NCBI GenBank assembly: GCA_001029715.1
Contig: CP011212.1
Location: forward strand, 398,936-462,935
Origin: a candidate division TM6 bacterium GW2011_GWF2_28_16
GTDB taxonomy: Bacteria; Patescibacteriota; Microgenomatia; UBA1400; PJMF01
Length of the DNA stretch: 64,000 nucleotides
Direction of reading: 5' to 3'
In this document: positions 853 through 47,542 of the stretch, in pieces
Layout: each line of letters starts with the position of its first letter
How positions within the stretch are numbered: the first letter of the stretch is position 1
Program-made: the position numbers and the translations under genes
The notes under the pieces: generated by a model
Seen by the model: only the letters and a program-made list of their open reading frames with translations
Told to the model about the DNA's origin: nothing
Databases searched by the model: none

Positions 853-1992
853 ATGAGTAACACTACCCTTCTAATATTATGTTTGTTTTTGATTTCAATT
901 TTAGCGACTTTTTATTTTTTGCTAAAAAAACTTTTGTCAGAAAAAAATTCAGAGCAATCTAGTGAACAACTGGAAGATATGGTTCACAAAGTTTTTGGCA
1001 TGGCTTCTAATGAAATTGCTATTCAAAGTAAAGGTATCCTGCAAGGTGAGAAAGATTTAATCAAGAATGATCTCTCTAATAAACAAGCTGCGATTGAAAA
1101 GATGATAAAAGATTTACGTCAAGAAATGGGTGACCAACAAAGAGAAATTCGTGCTATTGAAAAAGATCAGATTGATAAAATTAGTGGAGTTAAAACAGCT
1201 GTTGAAGAGCATCGCCAATTAACCAAGGAACTAAAAATTTCTACAGAGCAACTGGCCAAAGTTTTATCCAATAATCAGACTCGTGGAGCCTGGGGTGAAC
1301 GCATTATTGAAGATTTGTTGCAGGCCAATGGCTTGCAAGAAGGCATTCATTATCTACGTCAAGCTAAATTGGGCGCTTCAGAAATGAAGCCAGATATTAC
1401 CCTGCTTTTACCAGACCATCGCAACGTGGCAGTTGACGTTAAATTCCCGTATCAAGAAGTTCAAAAGATGTCGATGACTGAGGATCAGAGTGAAAAACAA
1501 AGTCATGTTTTGCAATTTAAAAGAGATCTTAAAATTAAAGTAGACAAAGTAGCTACCTATATTTCTCCAGAAAACGATACTTTAGATTACGCAATTATGT
1601 TTGTGCCAAATGAAGCTCTGTTTTCCTTTATCAATCAAAAGTTCCCAGACGTTATTGATGAGGCTTTAGCTAAAAAAGTAATTATTTGTTCGCCTTTTAG
1701 TTTCTTAATTGTGGCTCGCACAGTGATGGAAAGTTATCGTAACTTTATGGTGGGTAAAAAAATCAAACAAGTTATCAAACACATTGATGCTTTTGCAGGA
1801 GAATGGTTAAAATTTGACGATGAATTTTCTAAGTTTGGACGTAGTATCGAAACTTTGCAAAAAAACTACGAAACTCTTTCAACCACGAGGAAAAGACAGA
1901 TGGAAAAGAAGATTCAAAAGATTGAACAGTATCGCGGTAGTTCAGTAGAATTATTGGAAGATGGTGAAAAAGTTAAACTTCTAGAAGATTAA
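853..1992 (+). CDS. rmuC: DNA recombination protein RmuC
   Basis: 379 aa with an N-terminal TM and a long coiled-coil, then the RmuC-type core (RGAWGERIIEDLL, ...VDVKFPYQ..., MFVPNEALF). Confidence 0.7.
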   Translation: MSNTTLLILCLFLISILATFYFLLKKLLSEKNSEQSSEQLEDMVHKVFGMASNEIAIQSKGILQGEKDLIKNDLSNKQAAIEKMIKDLRQEMGDQQREIRAIEKDQIDKISGVKTAVEEHRQLTKELKISTEQLAKVLSNNQTRGAWGERIIEDLLQANGLQEGIHYLRQAKLGASEMKPDITLLLPDHRNVAVDVKFPYQEVQKMSMTEDQSEKQSHVLQFKRDLKIKVDKVATYISPENDTLDYAIMFVPNEALFSFINQKFPDVIDEALAKKVIICSPFSFLIVARTVMESYRNFMVGKKIKQVIKHIDAFAGEWLKFDDEFSKFGRSIETLQKNYETLSTTRKRQMEKKIQKIEQYRGSSVELLEDGEKVKLLED

Positions 1993-3128
1993 TCGTTTAA
2001 ATATTTTTCAAAAAAGCTAAGATCTTTTTGGACAGCTTGATTCCAATTGGGTTGTAAATTGTGATTAGCGCCTGGATATTTGTAGAAGTCAATATTTATT
2101 ACTTCCTTTTTTACTTCTTCCGCACTTTGACTGGCATCTGCGTTTTGAGCGCTAGTTGTAGCTCTCAATTCATTTTCTAAATCTACTTTAGCCAAAAATT
2201 CTTCTGTCCAAGAAATTAAGGCTGAGTCATCAGCAGTGCCATGTTGGATTTGAATCGGTCCATTTAATTTGTCTAAATGTTTGGTCAGCGAAAAATCAAA
2301 AACATCGTAATCATCCTCAAAAAGTGAAACATATTTACGAGTCTCTTTACCCTCATCTCCATATTCGTCACTGAAATAAAGAATTGAATATGGGAAAGGC
2401 ACCAGAACTGGTGCCCAAAGAGTAGTAGGCAGATTGCTACCAAGAACTTCTAGAGTAGAGATTGCAATTTGTCCACCATTACTATGTCCCCAAATGCCGA
2501 TTTGACTTGTATCAACGCTAACTTTTTTAATTGTTAGTTCAGTAATTTGACTAAGATCTATTTCTGGAAATGTTTGAATTGTTTTAATGAGATCAACTGC
2601 ATTGACGACTTTAATAAATCTAGCTTCCCAAGTATCAGTTGGCTCGGGATCACTTTCACCAAAGCCAAGAAAATCTGGAGCTAAAGTGAGGTAGTCGTTT
2701 TCTGCAAAGACAGCAGCAACATTTTTAGTACCTTCTCCAGAGTAATATGTTTCTAGAGGAACATAACCTCTAATCATTATTATGGTTGGTTTTTTTGTGT
2801 TCTCATTATCTATTTTCAAATTAAGTGCACCGGAAATTTTTTTACCCTGACTTTGATAAGTAAAAAGTAGGGCATATGTTTGCGTGTCCAAATCTTTAGA
2901 GATAATTTTTTCAATTCTGATTGGTGATGATACTTTAAATTCTTGTTTGCTTAAATTTTCAAAAGAATATTTAAGCAGTGGCAATGGTTTTTCTGTTTTT
3001 ATTTGTTTAACAATACTTTTTGCCAGAGGAGTTGATTCATTTTTTAAATAAAAATAAGCGATTAAAAAAGAAAGACAGCTACTTATTATCAATAGTAAAC
3101 ATATGAAGATTATTTTTTTTGTTTTCAC
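1989..3128 (-). CDS. Membrane-anchored alpha/beta-hydrolase (S9 peptidase / dienelactone hydrolase-like)
   Basis: N-terminal TM helix; nucleophile elbow GHSNGG (GxSxG) with downstream acidic and His residues (HGTADD). 4-nt convergent overlap with rmuC. Confidence 0.6.
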   Translation of the reverse strand: MKTKKIIFICLLLIISSCLSFLIAYFYLKNESTPLAKSIVKQIKTEKPLPLLKYSFENLSKQEFKVSSPIRIEKIISKDLDTQTYALLFTYQSQGKKISGALNLKIDNENTKKPTIIMIRGYVPLETYYSGEGTKNVAAVFAENDYLTLAPDFLGFGESDPEPTDTWEARFIKVVNAVDLIKTIQTFPEIDLSQITELTIKKVSVDTSQIGIWGHSNGGQIAISTLEVLGSNLPTTLWAPVLVPFPYSILYFSDEYGDEGKETRKYVSLFEDDYDVFDFSLTKHLDKLNGPIQIQHGTADDSALISWTEEFLAKVDLENELRATTSAQNADASQSAEEVKKEVINIDFYKYPGANHNLQPNWNQAVQKDLSFFEKYLND

Positions 3129-3312
3129 TCAGCAAATTATAGCAGTCTTGCTAACTTTTCTTCAAAATTGATGCTTGCTAAAATACCAGATCATATTTAA
3201 AATCTTTCAACATGTCGTTAATTACAAATTACTCCCATTTTTTCTTGGTCATTTTGCGCAAGAACGTTGCGGGGTAATCTTGTTGCATTAAAACAGATAA
3301 AAAACAAGAACA

Positions 3313-3342
3313 AGCCCCGCCTTAAGAAGCGGGTTTTTTTGT
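3313..3342 (+). terminator. Intrinsic terminator-like hairpin (cccgc-ttaagaa-gcggg + U7), part of an attenuator-like element
   Basis: Seen directly: gccccgccttaagaagcgggttttttt. The upstream segment gcgggg...(cttgtt..aacaag)...ccccgc can form a mutually exclusive alternative helix. Confidence 0.4.
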
Positions 3343-3476
3343 ATTTTTGATCTTTAACATTAACTAAGGGCTACTTTAGTCTTCAATTATTTGAAAGTTA
3401 AGGTAACCCTTTGTGGCTAGAGCAAATCAGCGCTCTAGTTTCGAAGGGAAAATTTTTCATGGTGGAGGAGAAAACA

Positions 3477-3590
3477 ATGGCAATAGGCAAGGGTAAGCAA
3501 AAAAAGTCTTCCGAACATTTGCCGAGATGCCCCCTTTGTGGGGGAAAACACAGGGCAAAATATTGTCCAAGAAAGCAAAAACCCTCTTAA
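3477..3590 (+). CDS. Small basic zinc-knuckle-like peptide (37 aa), unannotated micro-gene
   Basis: Near-consensus SD GGAGGAG sits 6 nt upstream of the ATG. Product MAIGKGKQKKSSEHLPRCPLCGGKHRAKYCPRKQKPS carries C-x2-C-x3-H-x4-C. A tandem hairpin terminator follows. Below the ORF-track length cutoff. Confidence 0.45.
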   Translation: MAIGKGKQKKSSEHLPRCPLCGGKHRAKYCPRKQKPS

Positions 3591-3595
3591 CCAAA

Positions 3596-3692
3596 GCCTC
3601 CGGTCCAGTAATGGACCGGAGGCAACAACATTTATTTTGACCAGGATCCTTAATTTTTAAATATTTGAAATTTAAGAATCCTCGTTTTTTTT
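3596..3692 (+). terminator. Tandem terminator: perfect 12-bp GNRA-capped hairpin, then a second hairpin with a U8 tract
   Basis: First hairpin: gcctccggtcca-GUAA-tggaccggaggc. Second: aggatccttaa...ttaagaatcct (one mismatch) followed by tttttttt. Confidence 0.6.
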
Positions 3693-3754
3693 CTAGAGCT
3701 AGCGCAAAGCGCGCCAATCTTTGGAAAGAGGAAATCTTTTTGGGAGGGTCGTCG

Positions 3755-3811
3755 ATGAAGAAAGATAAGAAGAAGAAAAAAGGACATCGTAATAAAAAAG
3801 GCAACAAGTAG
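3755..3811 (+). CDS. 18-aa Lys-rich micro-ORF (MKKDKKKKKGHRNKKGNK); speculative
   Basis: SD-like GGGAGGG 6 nt upstream of the ATG. Followed by a perfect GC-rich hairpin ggtggcgcc-atttattt-ggcgccacc (3842-3867) with no U-tract. Confidence 0.2.
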   Translation: MKKDKKKKKGHRNKKGNK

Positions 3812-3934
3812 TCGCCTTTAGGTGTCCAACCCTCAATCTTTGGTGGCGCCATTTATTTGGCGCCACCAAAATCTTTCCCTTCCTATATTATCTAAAACCT
3901 CTTTTTCAAATTTCGGTTATAATAACTCTTACCT

Positions 3935-5356
3935 ATGCAAAGAACTCTCGTTATTGATTCCTTAGAAAAAGTTGGTCAAACTGTTCGCCTCTGTGGTTGG
4001 GTGGATAGCAAGCGTGATCACGGTAAAGTTACTTTCATTGATTTAAGAGATCGTACTGGCAAGATCCAGGCCGTTGGTATTGGTGGCAAATTGAGTGAGT
4101 TAAGCAATGAGTCAGTTGTTGAAATCACTGGACCAATCAATACTCGTGGCGAAAAAATGGTCAACCCAAATTTGCCAACTGGCTCCATAGAGATTTTTGT
4201 TGAAGATTATAAGGTTCTCAATAAGGCAGCTGAGCTACCAATTCTTGTGGAAGGTGATGGTCGTGATGTTAATGAAGAGATGCGTCTTAAGTATCGCTAT
4301 TTAGATTTGCGTCGTGAGAGAATGCAAAAAATTGTGCGCTTGCGCTCTAAATTTTATCAAGCTCTTCGTGAGCAATTAGAGAAAAAAGATTTTACCGAAG
4401 TTGAAACTCCAATGTTGACCAAATCAACTAAGGAAGGAGCTCGTGATTTCATCGTGCCTTCTCGTTTTAATCCTGGTAAATTTTATGCTCTTCCGCAAAG
4501 TCCTCAACAATATAAACAATTATTGATGACGGCTGGTGTTGAGAATTATTATCAATTTGCTCGTTGTATTCGCGATGAAGATTTACGTGCTGATCGCGGT
4601 TTTGAATTTACTCAGCTTGATCTCGAAATGAGTTTTGTGACTCAACAAGAAGTAATGGATAATGTCGAAGAAATTGTCAAAAATGCTGTCAAAAAAGTTG
4701 GCGCCAAACTCAAAGATGAAGTTTTTCCAGTTATTCCTTACAAAGAAGCAATTGAAAAATATGGTGCCGATAAATTTGATTTGCGCAGTGAGGAAGAAAA
4801 AAAAGAAAATGTTTTAGCTTTTGCTTGGGTGGTTAGTTTCCCATTCTTTAAAAAAGTTGATAAAAAAGACATTGCTGAAGTGCGCGATGGTAAGAGTGGT
4901 TGGACTTTCACTCATAATCCTTTTTCGAGTCCAATTCCAGAATCTATGGAAGATCATAAGAATGCTGAAAATATCGAAAATATTATTACCGCTCAGTATG
5001 ACTTGGTCTGTAATGGTTACGAAGCAGGTGGCGGCAGTATTAGAGCTCATGATCCAGAAGTTCTTAAAAAGACCTTTGAAATCATGGGTTATAGTGATCA
5101 GGAGATTGAAGCCAGTGTGGGCCATATGTTGGAAGCTTTTAAATTGGGCACTCCTCCCCATGGTGGAATTGCTTTAGGACTAGATCGCTTAGTAATGCTT
5201 TTGGCAGGAGAGAATTCACTCAAAGAAACCATTGCTTTCCCAATGAGTTCTTCTGGCAAGACCTCTATCATGGACGCACCAAGCGAAGTTTCTGATGAAC
5301 AACTCAAAGAGTTAGGTATTCTAATCGCTCCTAATTTAGCTACAATGAAAAAGTGA
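3935..5356 (+). CDS. aspS: Aspartyl-tRNA synthetase (short, archaeal/non-discriminating-type, 473 aa)
   Basis: Class II aaRS motifs present: QSPQQYKQLLM, FEFTQLDLEMSF, GGGSIRAHDPE, GTPPHGGIALGLDRLVMLL. N-terminal OB-fold anticodon-binding domain. Confidence 0.9.
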   Translation: MQRTLVIDSLEKVGQTVRLCGWVDSKRDHGKVTFIDLRDRTGKIQAVGIGGKLSELSNESVVEITGPINTRGEKMVNPNLPTGSIEIFVEDYKVLNKAAELPILVEGDGRDVNEEMRLKYRYLDLRRERMQKIVRLRSKFYQALREQLEKKDFTEVETPMLTKSTKEGARDFIVPSRFNPGKFYALPQSPQQYKQLLMTAGVENYYQFARCIRDEDLRADRGFEFTQLDLEMSFVTQQEVMDNVEEIVKNAVKKVGAKLKDEVFPVIPYKEAIEKYGADKFDLRSEEEKKENVLAFAWVVSFPFFKKVDKKDIAEVRDGKSGWTFTHNPFSSPIPESMEDHKNAENIENIITAQYDLVCNGYEAGGGSIRAHDPEVLKKTFEIMGYSDQEIEASVGHMLEAFKLGTPPHGGIALGLDRLVMLLAGENSLKETIAFPMSSSGKTSIMDAPSEVSDEQLKELGILIAPNLATMKK

Positions 5357-46560: not shown

Positions 46561-46741
46561 AATATTTTTATAAAATTACCGCTTGCGCTGATTCTCAATT
46601 CTTGCTACTTTAATTATTGCTGTGGAACATAGTGAAAATCTATGACTGTGCCGCAACGGTAATTCCTTTTTAAGGATTAGTCCGATCTTCAGCAAAAGAG
46701 AAATCTTGACGAGCATCGAGGCTGTATATTTTACTGTCGAT

Positions 46742-46764
46742 GCTCCCTAAAGGGGAGCTTTTTT
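46742..46764 (+). terminator. Intrinsic terminator (gctccc-taaa-gggagc + U6) preceded by a competing hairpin
   Basis: Seen directly. An upstream 9-bp hairpin gagcatcga...tcgatgctc (46711-46745) shares nucleotides with the terminator 5' arm. Confidence 0.45.
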
Positions 46765-46840
46765 GTTCAAAGAACCACGGCTATTAATATTATTAATAGT
46801 TATCTTCGTGGTTAATTTCTGCGAAGTAAGAAAGGTTTTT

Positions 46841-47542
46841 ATGAACACAAAAGCTATCGAAATGGCAGGCAGTATTGGAATTGAGCTAAGCCAAATAAAT
46901 TCAGAATGGACTTCTCTTCAAAGCATTGATTCTTCTTCAATATTAGAGAATGCAGGTAAGGAAGCAGGCATAGAAGATCGTCAGTGGCAAAAATTGCTTT
47001 CTCAAGCTGGTTCTTGGGTGATTGATGGTTTGGATAAAAAGATATTTGAAATACAAAATAAAGTAATTGAGCAAACAACTGCCATTGAGTTAAGAAAAAT
47101 GTTTGGTGTTCCACTTTCATTGCTAGCAATGCCTGTTTTTGTAGAGTTGGCAGGAATGGAATTGGCAGCGAAAATTGATTTGAAAAAAGAAGCCATGATG
47201 ACCTCTCAAATTTGGGAACAAATTAATAACAGAGTTTTATATATGGTTCAACTTTTCTTAGCAGAGCAAATCAATTTGGTCGAAGATGAAGAAAAAGCTC
47301 ATCAGAGTGCTTTGAGTGAATCAAAGAAAGAAGCCGACGGAGTCTCTGGTTTATCAGAAACGGTGGGAGCTGTGGAGAATCAATTTGCTTCAAAGCTGGA
47401 AAAACTAAAAGATAAGAAAGAATCTTTAATAAGTGTTTTCAAAAAGATTGGTGGAGATTTAGTTAATACTGTTGAGAGAGCTTTTGAGACTACTGTTTTT
47501 AGTGCGAGTAGGCAAAGTACTGCTGTTACGGTGATTCAATAA
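46841..47542 (+). CDS. Hypothetical protein (start trimmed to MNTKAIEMAGS after the AAGAAAGG RBS)
   Basis: ORF track frame 46763..47542. Its first 26 codons overlap the terminator hairpin, so the downstream Met is preferred. Confidence 0.4.
   Translation: MNTKAIEMAGSIGIELSQINSEWTSLQSIDSSSILENAGKEAGIEDRQWQKLLSQAGSWVIDGLDKKIFEIQNKVIEQTTAIELRKMFGVPLSLLAMPVFVELAGMELAAKIDLKKEAMMTSQIWEQINNRVLYMVQLFLAEQINLVEDEEKAHQSALSESKKEADGVSGLSETVGAVENQFASKLEKLKDKKESLISVFKKIGGDLVNTVERAFETTVFSASRQSTAVTVIQ

What the first reader, a model, noticed from the sequence alone, without database searches (positions are those of the whole stretch)
3477..3590. Unannotated 37-aa basic zinc-knuckle-like peptide gene with textbook expression signals
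GGAGGAG sits 6 nt before the ATG. The product MAIGKGKQKKSSEHLPRCPLCGGKHRAKYCPRKQKPS contains C-x2-C-x3-H-x4-C. That is one residue off the CCHC zinc-knuckle spacing C-x2-C-x4-H-x4-C used by nucleic-acid-binding proteins, and it is embedded in Lys/Arg-rich flanks. It is followed by a perfect 12-bp GNRA-capped hairpin and then a second hairpin plus U8. It does not match the Cys spacing of zinc-ribbon ribosomal proteins L36, L31, L32 or L33 as I recall them. It is a candidate novel small nucleic-acid-binding protein or ribosome-associated peptide.
Basis: seen in the sequence. Interest (0 to 1): 0.6.

Follow-up and report, generated by a model that had tools for sequence, protein, structure and literature searches.

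The report
Unannotated zinc-knuckle microprotein gene
A real but never-annotated 37-codon gene in an uncultivated groundwater bacterium encodes a very basic peptide with one conserved zinc-binding knuckle, found only in a few close relatives, and its function is still unknown.

Summary
The window is Candidatus Pacebacteria GW2011_GWF2_38_9. The public record annotates an antisense 131-aa orphan ORF here instead.

Two metagenome relatives (AspRS 88-90% identical) carry a syntenic ORF. It has a GTG start after AGGAGG, a 17-residue N-terminal arm, and an invariant P-R-C-P-x-C-G-x2-H-x4-C-P. The rest has diverged (11 of 37 residues identical), but net charge stays about +9 to +10. Between those two relatives, 14 substitutions cause only 4 amino-acid changes (dN/dS about 0.1, permutation P=0.00065). 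The antisense ORF is broken in both.

No protein, Pfam, NCBIfam, PHROG or PDB match is significant. The nearest resemblance is the Mit1 zinc finger, which has the same spacing but scores below threshold. A near-conspecific contig lacks the whole 845-nt cassette, so this is not a core ribosomal protein.

It is best read as a lineage-restricted, accessory, zinc-stabilised polyanion (probably RNA) binding microprotein. It lies downstream of a candidate leader-peptide attenuator and next to a strongly conserved 18-aa poly-lysine ORF. Zinc binding, RNA binding and translation are all untested.

The parts
3477..3590 (+). pep37: a 37-codon ORF plus stop encoding MAIGKGKQKKSSEHLPRCPLCGGKHRAKYCPRKQKPS. 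The zinc-knuckle ligands are C18, C21, H25 and C30.
   Evidence: Searches give the sequence. Syntenic homologues sit at L009 3528-3671 and L046 3529-3672, with invariant M1, K5, P16, R17, C18, P19, C21, G22, H25, C30 and P31. L009 versus L046 gives dN 0.041, dS 0.42 and permutation P=0.00065.
3464..3470 (+). Shine-Dalgarno sequence GGAGGAG, 6 nt before the ATG.
   Evidence: AGGAGG lies at the same place before the GTG start in L009 and L046. In L046 the in-frame upstream extension contains a TGA, so the SD-proximal start is the conserved one.
3407..3448 (+). Conserved 16-bp interrupted hairpin in the 5' leader (arms 3407-3413/3442-3448 and 3415-3423/3432-3440). It is followed by an A2-4 run, a T5-8 run, and then the SD.
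   Evidence: all 16 pairs are kept in the 3 sequences, with one pair changed on both sides (G-C to A-U). This leader is more conserved at the DNA level than the ORF. A covariance model of it finds the leader of the second small ORF only weakly (L046 E=0.013, window E=1.1).
3596..3623 (+). GC-rich 12-bp hairpin starting 5 nt after the stop codon. It has no U-tract on the + strand.
   Evidence: It is conserved in L009 and L046, with the T3604:A3615 pair changed to C:G. It is not repeated elsewhere in the window.
3643..3692 (+). AT-rich long hairpin (3643-3682), then CG, then T8 (3685-3692). Likely the intrinsic terminator of pep37.
   Evidence: fold. The equivalent element in L009 is listed as a terminator: 20 pairs followed by T7. 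It is aligned across the three sequences.
3175..3340 (+). Upstream candidate leader-peptide attenuator. It consists of a promoter (TTGCTA-17-TAAAAT, 3175-3203), a leaderless 21-codon ORF at 3212-3277 (MSLITNYSHFFLVILRKNVAG), an antiterminator arm GCGGGG near 3269-3275, and a terminator at 3316-3333 plus T7.
   Evidence: The element is conserved in L009, L046 and L050. In constrained folds, the terminator is replaced by the antiterminator only when a ribosome sits at codons 3-15 (fully in the window and L046, partly in L009, not in L050).
3755..3811 (+). pep18: the neighbouring 18-codon ORF MKKDKKKKKGHRNKKGNK, with GGGAGGG (3742-3748) 6 nt upstream.
   Evidence: It is 100% identical in L009 and 17 of 18 identical in L046 (one D-to-E change; the start codon there is GTG, not ATG). 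Every one of the 5-7 nucleotide differences per pair lies at a third codon position.
3839..3870 (+). Hairpin GGTGGCGCC/GGCGCCACC (with TTT/AAA extension) after pep18 and before the aspS promoter.
   Evidence: It is listed as terminator-like in L009 and L046. The stem is invariant and the loop is variable.
3457..3852 (-). Antisense 131-aa ORF annotated in the public record as hypothetical protein UT13_C0001G0411. It is a spurious call.
   Evidence: its only hit in 5.8 billion proteins is itself; the frame is broken into pieces of 86 aa or less in L009 and 48 aa or less in L046; it shows 10-11 amino-acid differences and stops in the antisense frames across the pep37 stretch.

Best explanation
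The ORF at 3477-3590(+) is a genuine, so far unannotated protein-coding gene of a narrow clade of Pacebacteria-like CPR bacteria.

Its 37-aa product has three parts:
- a 17-residue Lys/Ser-rich, probably disordered N-terminal arm;
- one 13-residue CCHC knuckle (C18-P-x-C21-G-x2-H25-x4-C30-P), inferred to hold one Zn2+ tetrahedrally;
- a short basic tail. Net charge is about +10.

Shown here:
- The frame, the start site with its strong SD, the four ligands and the net charge are under purifying selection.
- The remaining residues drift quickly.
- The gene is dispensable at the species level.
- Conserved RNA hairpins flank it.

Inferred:
- The knuckle gives a tiny folded core, and the basic arms bind a polyanion, most likely RNA (rRNA, tRNA or its own structured leader).
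- Expression is probably fed by read-through of the upstream leader-peptide attenuator. If so, the peptide would be made mainly when ribosomes stall on that leader.
For: Sequence and signals:
- The ORF, SD and hairpins are as described.

Conservation:
- Syntenic ORFs in L009 and L046 have the same 17-residue N-arm and an invariant PRCPxCGxxHxxxxCP. Only 11 of 37 residues are identical overall.
- Net charge, counted from the sequences, is +10 for the window peptide and +9 for L009.
- L009 versus L046: 14 nucleotide differences give 4 amino-acid changes and no stop. dN/dS is about 0.10. The permutation test gives P=0.00065, and every other frame shows more changes and stops.
- The length difference in the C-terminal tail is in frame, at 10 codons.
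- The SD-proximal start is conserved, while the upstream extension carries a TGA in L046.

Against the annotated alternative:
- The antisense ORF is an orphan and is broken in relatives.

RNA elements and motif:
- The leader and 3' hairpins are conserved with compensatory changes.
- The same ligand spacing occurs in the solved Mit1 zinc finger (Pfam PF18586 E=0.005-0.008).
- AF2 gives its highest confidence over the knuckle (block mean pLDDT 88 for residues 21-30).
- Attenuator logic upstream is supported.
Against: - The family has only three members (plus identical strain copies). No homologue appeared in 5.8 billion proteins or 1.84 billion cluster representatives, and none in viral contigs.
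- The window-versus-relatives comparison is saturated (dN about 0.97, dS not computable). Codon-level proof of selection therefore rests on a single close pair.
- There is no experimental evidence of transcription, translation, zinc binding or RNA binding.
- No conserved aromatic residue sits at the positions retroviral knuckles use for base stacking.
- The whole cassette is absent from L008, so any role is accessory.
- No clear promoter of its own was found.
- The AF2 model comes from a single sequence and is of moderate confidence. It gave no fold match.
Confidence: 0.6

Rival explanations
1. Cis-acting regulatory uORF. The ORF is translated, but the peptide has no function of its own. Translation to a stop codon 5 nt before the GC hairpin merely controls the folding of the downstream hairpins and terminator, and hence read-through toward pep18 and aspS.
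For: - The stop codon lies 5 nt before hairpin 1, so a terminating ribosome would melt its 5' arm.
- A terminator follows.
- Most of the peptide sequence is poorly conserved.
- The region already contains one attenuator-like leader.
Against: - Hairpin 1 and the terminator do not overlap, and I found no alternative pairing between them.
- What is conserved is a metal-ligand pattern plus net charge and arm length, not a run of regulatory codons.
- aspS has its own TATAAT 11 nt before its ATG.
- pep18 has its own SD.
Confidence: 0.1
2. Zinc-knuckle microprotein that acts through protein-protein contacts or metal handling rather than by binding nucleic acid. It could be a small regulator of an enzyme or of RNA polymerase, like the haloarchaeal zinc-finger micro-proteins, or a zinc buffer.
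For: - The CPxCG knuckle is the hallmark of small archaeal zinc-finger regulators such as Brz (PMC2253796).
- There are weak sub-threshold hits to DUF7129 and to rubrerythrin-like domains.
- There is no conserved aromatic residue for base stacking.
Against: - A conserved net charge of +9 to +10 on 37-47 residues with almost no hydrophobic surface fits polyanion binding better.
- A single metal site is a poor buffer.
- No partner gene co-varies with it in the loci examined.
Confidence: 0.15
3. The element is a non-coding RNA or a UTR. Selection acts on the conserved hairpins, and the ORF is a by-product.
For: - The leader hairpin and 3' hairpins are better conserved at the DNA level than the ORF body.
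- The whole 306-nt stretch folds with z=-6.7.
Against: - The frame stays open with a strong SD in all three sequences.
- Substitutions are biased toward synonymous sites (P=0.00065).
- The four ligands are conserved within otherwise saturated sequence.
- There is no Rfam family match.
Confidence: 0.07
4. A degenerate or miniaturised zinc-ribbon ribosomal protein (bL32- or bL36-like), or another core ribosomal component.
For: - A basic N-terminus followed by CPxCG resembles bL32. Mitochondrial bL32 chains are among the weak PDB hits (E=0.12-1.4).
- The gene has a strong SD and sits near aaRS genes and ybeY.
Against: - There is no Pfam or NCBIfam ribosomal hit at E<=10.
- The bL32 alignment needs a 4-residue gap and lacks the second CxxC.
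- The gene is absent from a near-conspecific genome and from 77 other aspS-linked loci.
- Only 30% identity remains where AspRS keeps 88%.
Confidence: 0.05
5. The annotated antisense 131-aa ORF (3457-3852, minus strand) is the real gene.
For: It is the longest ORF in the gap and is what gene callers chose.
Against: - It has no homologue other than itself.
- It is broken in L009 and L046.
- It runs antisense through three hairpins and two conserved small ORFs whose substitutions are synonymous on the + strand.
Confidence: 0.02

Closest known systems
Retroviral-type CCHC zinc knuckle (Pfam zf-CCHC PF00098; nucleocapsid, Lin28, CNBP, Nanos-type CCHC)
   Same: - Ligand order is C-C-H-C, with a CxxCG first knuckle, H-x4-C-P at the end, and basic flanks.
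- Nanos and nucleocapsid chains appear among the weak PDB hits.
- The expected role of such knuckles is binding single-stranded nucleic acid.
   Different: - The spacing is C-x2-C-x3-H-x4-C, not x4.
- zf-CCHC is not among the Pfam matches up to E=10.
- No conserved aromatic residues are present.
- The peptide is stand-alone and bacterial, not a domain of a larger eukaryotic or viral protein.
Mit1 C-terminal zinc finger 1 (Pfam PF18586, PDB 5ikf)
   Same: The spacing and end residues are identical: RCRCCGIKHLPAHCP aligns without gaps to the family profile RCPaCGqkHrpsdCP. This is the best profile match for the L009 and L046 peptides (E=0.005-0.008).
   Different: - It scores 17-18 bits against a 25-bit cut-off, so homology is not established.
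- Mit1 is a fungal chromatin remodeller, and the finger is one module of a large protein.
Haloarchaeal small CPxCG zinc-finger micro-proteins (e.g. Brz of Halobacterium salinarum, PMC2253796)
   Same: - Both are very small stand-alone proteins found in an intergenic gap missed by annotation.
- Both have a CPxCG knuckle and a regulatory or accessory role.
- There are weak hits to archaeal small zinc-finger families: DUF7129 at E=0.043 and rubre_like_arch at E=0.021.
   Different: - As far as I recall, those proteins use two Cys pairs (C4). Here the second half-site is H-x4-C.
- The organism is bacterial (CPR).
- No significant sequence similarity was found.
Zinc-ribbon ribosomal proteins bL32 and bL36
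   Same: Both are small, basic, zinc-binding and strongly expressed. bL32 shares a basic N-terminus followed by CPxCG.
   Different: - The ligand pattern differs and there is no family hit.
- The gene is not universal even within the species-level clade.

Membership tests
Pfam zf-CCHC (PF00098) zinc knuckle | Spacing of C-x2-C-x4-H-x4-C | tested here: not met
   The spacing is C-x2-C-x3-H-x4-C in all three family members.
Pfam zf-CCHC (PF00098) zinc knuckle | Profile score above the gathering threshold | tested here: not met
   zf-CCHC is not listed among hits up to E=10 for the window peptide or up to E=1 for the L009 and L046 peptides.
Mit1-type zinc finger (PF18586) | Ligand spacing C-x2-C-x3-H-x4-C-P | tested here: met
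   The family profile aligns without gaps to 5ikf residues 155-169.
Mit1-type zinc finger (PF18586) | Profile score above the 25-bit cut-off | tested here: not met
   The L009 and L046 peptides score 17.0 and 17.7 bits. The window peptide has no hit.
Ribosomal protein bL32 | Family profile match (Pfam Ribosomal_L32p or NCBIfam rpmF) | tested here: not met
   No hit at E<=10. PDB bL32m chains match only at E=0.12-1.4, with a 4-residue gap and no second CxxC.
Ribosomal protein bL32 | Present in essentially all members of a lineage (core gene) | tested here: not met
   The gene is absent from L008, whose flanks are 91-96% identical at the DNA level. It is present in only 2 of 80 aspS-linked loci.
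Ribosomal protein bL36 | C-x2-C-x12-C-x4-H pattern (recalled from memory) and a family profile match | tested here: not met
   The ligand pattern differs and there is no profile hit.
CPxCG-related small zinc-finger proteins (archaeal) | CPxCG knuckle | tested here: met
   CPLCG in the window; CPACG in L009 and L046.
CPxCG-related small zinc-finger proteins (archaeal) | A second Cys pair completing a C4 site, and a family profile match | tested here: not met
   The second half-site is H-x4-C. DUF7129 scores 14 bits against a cut-off of 30, and rubre_like_arch scores 14.5 against 32.
Any zinc-finger family | Actual Zn2+ coordination by C18, C21, H25 and C30 | not testable with these tools
   This is inferred only from ligand conservation and from the higher AF2 confidence over the knuckle.
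Leader-peptide transcription attenuator (context element at 3175-3340) | A short ORF overlapping region 1, mutually exclusive 1:2, 2:3 and 3:4 helices, and a terminator with a U-tract | tested here: inconclusive
   Constrained folds give the expected switch in the window and L046, a partial switch in L009, and no switch in L050. The Rfam Phe_leader match scores only 24 bits against a threshold of 55.

The most novel reading that the evidence does not exclude
pep37 and its neighbour pep18 would be translation-stress-induced accessory ribosome- or tRNA-binding microproteins specific to a CPR lineage. In this reading, a nascent-peptide-sensing leader (MSLITNYSHFFLVILRKNVAG) relieves termination when ribosomes stall. 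The resulting transcript delivers a zinc-knuckle peptide and a poly-lysine peptide that bind rRNA or tRNA and modify or protect translation. This would be a previously unseen class of regulated, dispensable ribosome-associated peptides in minimal-genome bacteria.
Probability: 0.1. Interest if true: 0.7.

Novelty: new variant of a known kind. Interest (0 to 1): 0.4.

Why it matters
- It is a worked example of a real gene hidden under a spurious antisense annotation in a CPR genome. Neither this peptide nor either of its two relatives is present in a 15-billion-protein collection.
- Stand-alone CCHC-type knuckle peptides are, to my knowledge, not described in bacteria. A 37-residue, single-site, +10-charged peptide would be about the smallest unit combining a metal-stabilised core with basic arms, and it is easy to synthesise and test.
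- Its setting suggests that small basic peptides may be a regulated, fast-evolving accessory layer in these reduced genomes. That setting includes an attenuator-like leader, a very strongly conserved 18-aa poly-lysine ORF, and replacement of the cassette by a different basic ORF in a near-conspecific genome.
- The practical significance is modest until a target is known.

Tried and rejected
Searches that found nothing useful:
- The word-indexed protein search, run with the 43-aa version and again with the 3-member alignment, found no candidates.
- phmmer against 1.84 billion cluster representatives gave only three repeat-driven false hits in long eukaryote-like proteins.
- The genome-contig scan with the 59-aa extended ORF gave four chance matches to PRCPLCGG in GC-rich genomes.
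- The viral-contig scan found nothing.
- PHROGs gave only insignificant hits.
- Rfam at E<=10 over 2900-4200, and at gathering threshold over the whole window, found no family in the region and no T-box.

Other dead ends:
- The covariance model of the leader hairpin gives only weak evidence that the pep18 leader is a paralogue. Its hit in L057 is really the terminator of a T-box-like leader.

Ideas rejected:
- Resemblances to Thx, bL37 or the SecA SEC-C motif, which I recalled from memory: no profile support.
- RiPP precursor: the only nearby enzyme is the S9 hydrolase, which stays in place in L008 where the cassette is gone.
- Type I toxin for the ORF antisense to pep18: the substitutions fall on its first codon positions.
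- Repeated REP-like element for hairpin 1: it is unique in the window.

Full report
**1. What is in the sequence**

- GGAGGAG lies at 3464-3470, followed by six bases and the ATG at 3477. The TAA is at 3588-3590.
- The product is MAIGKGKQKKSSEHLPRCPLCGGKHRAKYCPRKQKPS, with ligands C18-x2-C21-x3-H25-x4-C30.
- Five bases after the stop codon comes a perfect 12-bp hairpin (arms 3596-3607 and 3612-3623, GTAA loop).
- An AT-rich hairpin follows at 3643-3682, then CG and T8 at 3685-3692.
- There is an alternative in-frame ATG at 3459 and a TTG at 3411.
- The ORF sits in an 806-nt gap between a divergent S9-type hydrolase gene (1989-3128, minus strand) and aspS (3935-5356). This is the largest gap between ORFs of 100 aa or more in an otherwise tightly packed window.

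**2. Source and annotation**

The antisense ORF 3457-3852(-) is identical to hypothetical protein UT13_C0001G0411 of Candidatus Pacebacteria bacterium GW2011_GWF2_38_9. It has no other relative among 5.8 billion proteins. Gene callers place that antisense ORF here on every contig of this strain. None of the possible versions of the + strand peptide exists in the 15-billion-protein collection. 'Unannotated' is therefore correct.

**3. Direct homology searches**

These searches all failed.
- Pfam and NCBIfam gave only sub-threshold noise: eIF3g, DUF7129, a primase zinc ribbon and a rubrerythrin-like domain.
- The word-indexed protein search found no candidates.
- phmmer against 1.84 billion representatives returned three repeat-driven false hits.
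- A genome scan with back-translated 8-mers returned four chance matches.
- The viral scan found nothing.

**4. Orthologous regions**

Using AspRS as an anchor, a metagenome scan returned 80 loci spanning 55-99% AspRS identity.

Two of them carry a syntenic ORF: L009 (88% AspRS identity) and L046 (90%).
- L009 encodes M-CKNKKSSSQKNAKSPRCPACGQHHSPSDCPVLKAKKGGVKKNADSS. L046 differs from it at four residues.
- Both use a GTG start 6 nt after AGGAGG.
- The N-terminal arm is 17 residues in all three peptides.
- The invariant columns are M1, K5, P16, R17, C18, P19, C21, G22, H25, C30 and P31.
- Everything else has diverged. The ungapped codon alignment between the window and L009 is only 38% identical at the nucleotide level.
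- Net charge stays at +10 (window) and +9 (L009), counted from the sequences.
- The tail differs by exactly 10 codons.

A relaxed ligand regex applied to all short open frames finds this site and nothing comparable elsewhere in the window or the loci.

**5. Coding tests**

- Between L009 and L046, 14 nucleotide differences produce 4 amino-acid changes and no stop. dN is 0.041 and dS 0.42.
- Placing the same number and kind of substitutions at random gives so few changes, and no stop, in 0.065% of trials. All five other frames show more changes and contain stops.
- The antisense 131-aa frame is fragmented in both relatives.
- The in-frame upstream extension carries a TGA in L046. The conserved start is therefore the SD-proximal one, equivalent to ATG 3477.

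I regard coding on the + strand as well supported. The caveat is that the codon-level statistic rests on one close pair.

**6. Distribution**

L008 has AspRS 99% identical to the window, and its flanks are 91% and 96% identical at the DNA level. Yet it lacks the entire 845-nt cassette. In its place is about 400 nt holding a different 39-aa basic ORF with its own SD and terminator. The other loci, with AspRS identity of 86% or less, lack pep37. L050 keeps only the upstream leader element, followed by an unrelated 63-aa basic ORF.

The gene is therefore lineage-restricted and dispensable. This argues against a core ribosomal protein. One limit applies: only about 4 kb on each side of aspS was available per relative, so a copy elsewhere in those genomes cannot be excluded.

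**7. RNA context**

- *Leader hairpin.* The 5' leader holds a 16-bp interrupted hairpin (3407-3448). It is more conserved than the ORF and has one pair changed on both sides. A short A-run, a T-run and the SD follow it.
- *3' hairpins.* The GC hairpin after the stop codon is conserved, with its T:A pair changed to C:G. Its loop is not conserved, so GNRA capping is not a conserved feature. The AT-rich hairpin plus U-tract is conserved and is scored as a terminator in L009.
- *Promoter.* I found no acceptable sigma-70 promoter between 3340 and 3477.
- *Upstream element.* A conserved promoter (TTGCTA-17-TAAAAT, with the -10 ending 8 nt before an ATG) drives a leaderless 21-codon ORF at 3212-3277. 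A terminator follows at 3316-3333 plus T7. The element is conserved in L009, L046 and L050.
- *Attenuator test.* In constrained folds, a ribosome parked at codons 3-15 lets GCGGGGU pair with GCCCCGC and abolishes the terminator. With no ribosome, or with a ribosome at codon 16 or beyond, the terminator forms. The switch is clean in the window and L046, partial in L009 and absent in L050. This is the logic of a leader-peptide attenuator, but the evidence is inconclusive. If it is real, pep37 is expressed by regulated read-through.
- *Rarity of strong SDs.* Full GGAGG SDs followed by a start codon are rare in this window. pep37 and the neighbouring pep18 account for two of the very few such cases outside long ORFs.

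**8. The motif**

- The spacing is one residue shorter than Pfam zf-CCHC, and that family does not hit.
- The same C-x2-C-x3-H-x4-C-P spacing occurs in the solved zinc finger of S. pombe Mit1, which aligns without gaps (E=0.024).
- PF18586 is the best profile for the L009 and L046 peptides. It scores 17-18 bits against a cut-off of 25, so membership is not established.
- Nanos, nucleocapsid, eIF3g and mitochondrial bL32 appear only at E between 0.1 and 10.
- A single-sequence AF2 model has mean pLDDT 74, highest over residues 21-30. It gives no fold match.

**9. Mechanism**

Shown: a translated-looking gene whose conserved features are the start signals, the arm length, the net positive charge and four metal ligands.

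Inferred:
- One Zn2+ is held by C18, C21, H25 and C30, giving a minimal folded knuckle.
- The Lys/Arg arms bind a polyanion, most probably RNA.
- Expression is coupled to the upstream attenuator.

I put about 0.8 on 'real gene for a metal-knuckle peptide'. I put about 0.5 on nucleic-acid binding given that. I put about 0.1-0.2 on a specifically ribosome- or tRNA-associated role.

Rivals, in order of weight:
1. A protein-protein or metal-handling microprotein.
2. A purely cis-acting uORF.
3. A non-coding RNA with an incidental ORF.
4. A miniaturised ribosomal protein.
5. The annotated antisense ORF.

**10. Novelty and verdict**

There is no detectable homology to any described family. The kind, a small zinc-finger or zinc-knuckle microprotein, is known. 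A stand-alone bacterial CCHC-type knuckle peptide with x3 spacing is a new variant of it.

Interest is moderate. The gene is real and was missed by annotation, and its setting is suggestive. But the family has three members and no functional data.

Noticed in passing
window 3175-3340 (+); also L009 3266-3394, L046 3266-3394, L050 1746-1876: A conserved promoter has its -10 element ending 8 nt before an ATG, so the mRNA would be leaderless. It drives a 21-25 codon ORF (MSLITNYSHFFLVILRKNVAG; the ILRK motif is conserved), followed by an intrinsic terminator. The alternative helices behave like a leader-peptide attenuator in constrained folds. The conserved hydrophobic leader (YxHFF..ILRK) looks more like a nascent-peptide sensor than a run of codons for a single amino acid.
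   Followed up: partly
window 3755-3811 (+): This 18-codon ORF, MKKDKKKKKGHRNKKGNK, has GGGAGGG 6 nt upstream. It is 100% and 94% identical in L009 and L046, and every nucleotide difference falls at a third codon position (dN 0-0.02, dS 0.9 or more). It is much more constrained than pep37 and is unannotated. Its function is unknown.
   Followed up: partly
window 3457-3852 (-): The annotated hypothetical protein UT13_C0001G0411 (131 aa) is an orphan antisense ORF. It is broken in relatives, so it is almost certainly a spurious gene call that masks three small + strand genes.
   Followed up: yes
L008 3600-3999 (Ga0180007_10000001): In a near-conspecific genome (flanks 91-96% identical at the DNA level) the whole 845-nt cassette is replaced by about 400 nt. 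The replacement carries a different 39-aa very basic ORF (MTRSNRCKSKVNKEKRNNRKNQKKEGQKRGRGKRGNQKK) with GGGAGGG and a terminator. L010 and L050 also carry unrelated small basic ORFs before aspS. The site seems to be a hotspot for turnover of basic micro-ORFs.
   Followed up: partly
L057 3800-4000: In a relative with 57% AspRS identity, aspS is preceded by a T-box-like sequence (AAGGTGGCACCG) and a terminator hairpin plus T7. The window has no T-box before aspS.
   Followed up: no
window 3918-3937 (+): The aspS TATAAT box (3918-3923) ends only 11 nt before the ATG at 3935, and there is no SD. This implies a nearly leaderless mRNA. Full GGAGG SDs are rare at gene starts in this window.
   Followed up: no
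window 3676-3757 (+): The pep18 leader has the same layout as the pep37 leader: a TAGAGC/GCTCTAG-type hairpin, then GAAAGAGGAAAT, a T-run and the SD. The covariance model of the pep37 leader detects it only weakly (L046 E=0.013, window E=1.1). The two leaders may be paralogous and co-regulated.
   Followed up: partly
window 46597-46756 (+): An AdoCbl (cobalamin) riboswitch scores above the Rfam gathering threshold (55.6 bits), upstream of the ORF at 46763-47542.
   Followed up: no
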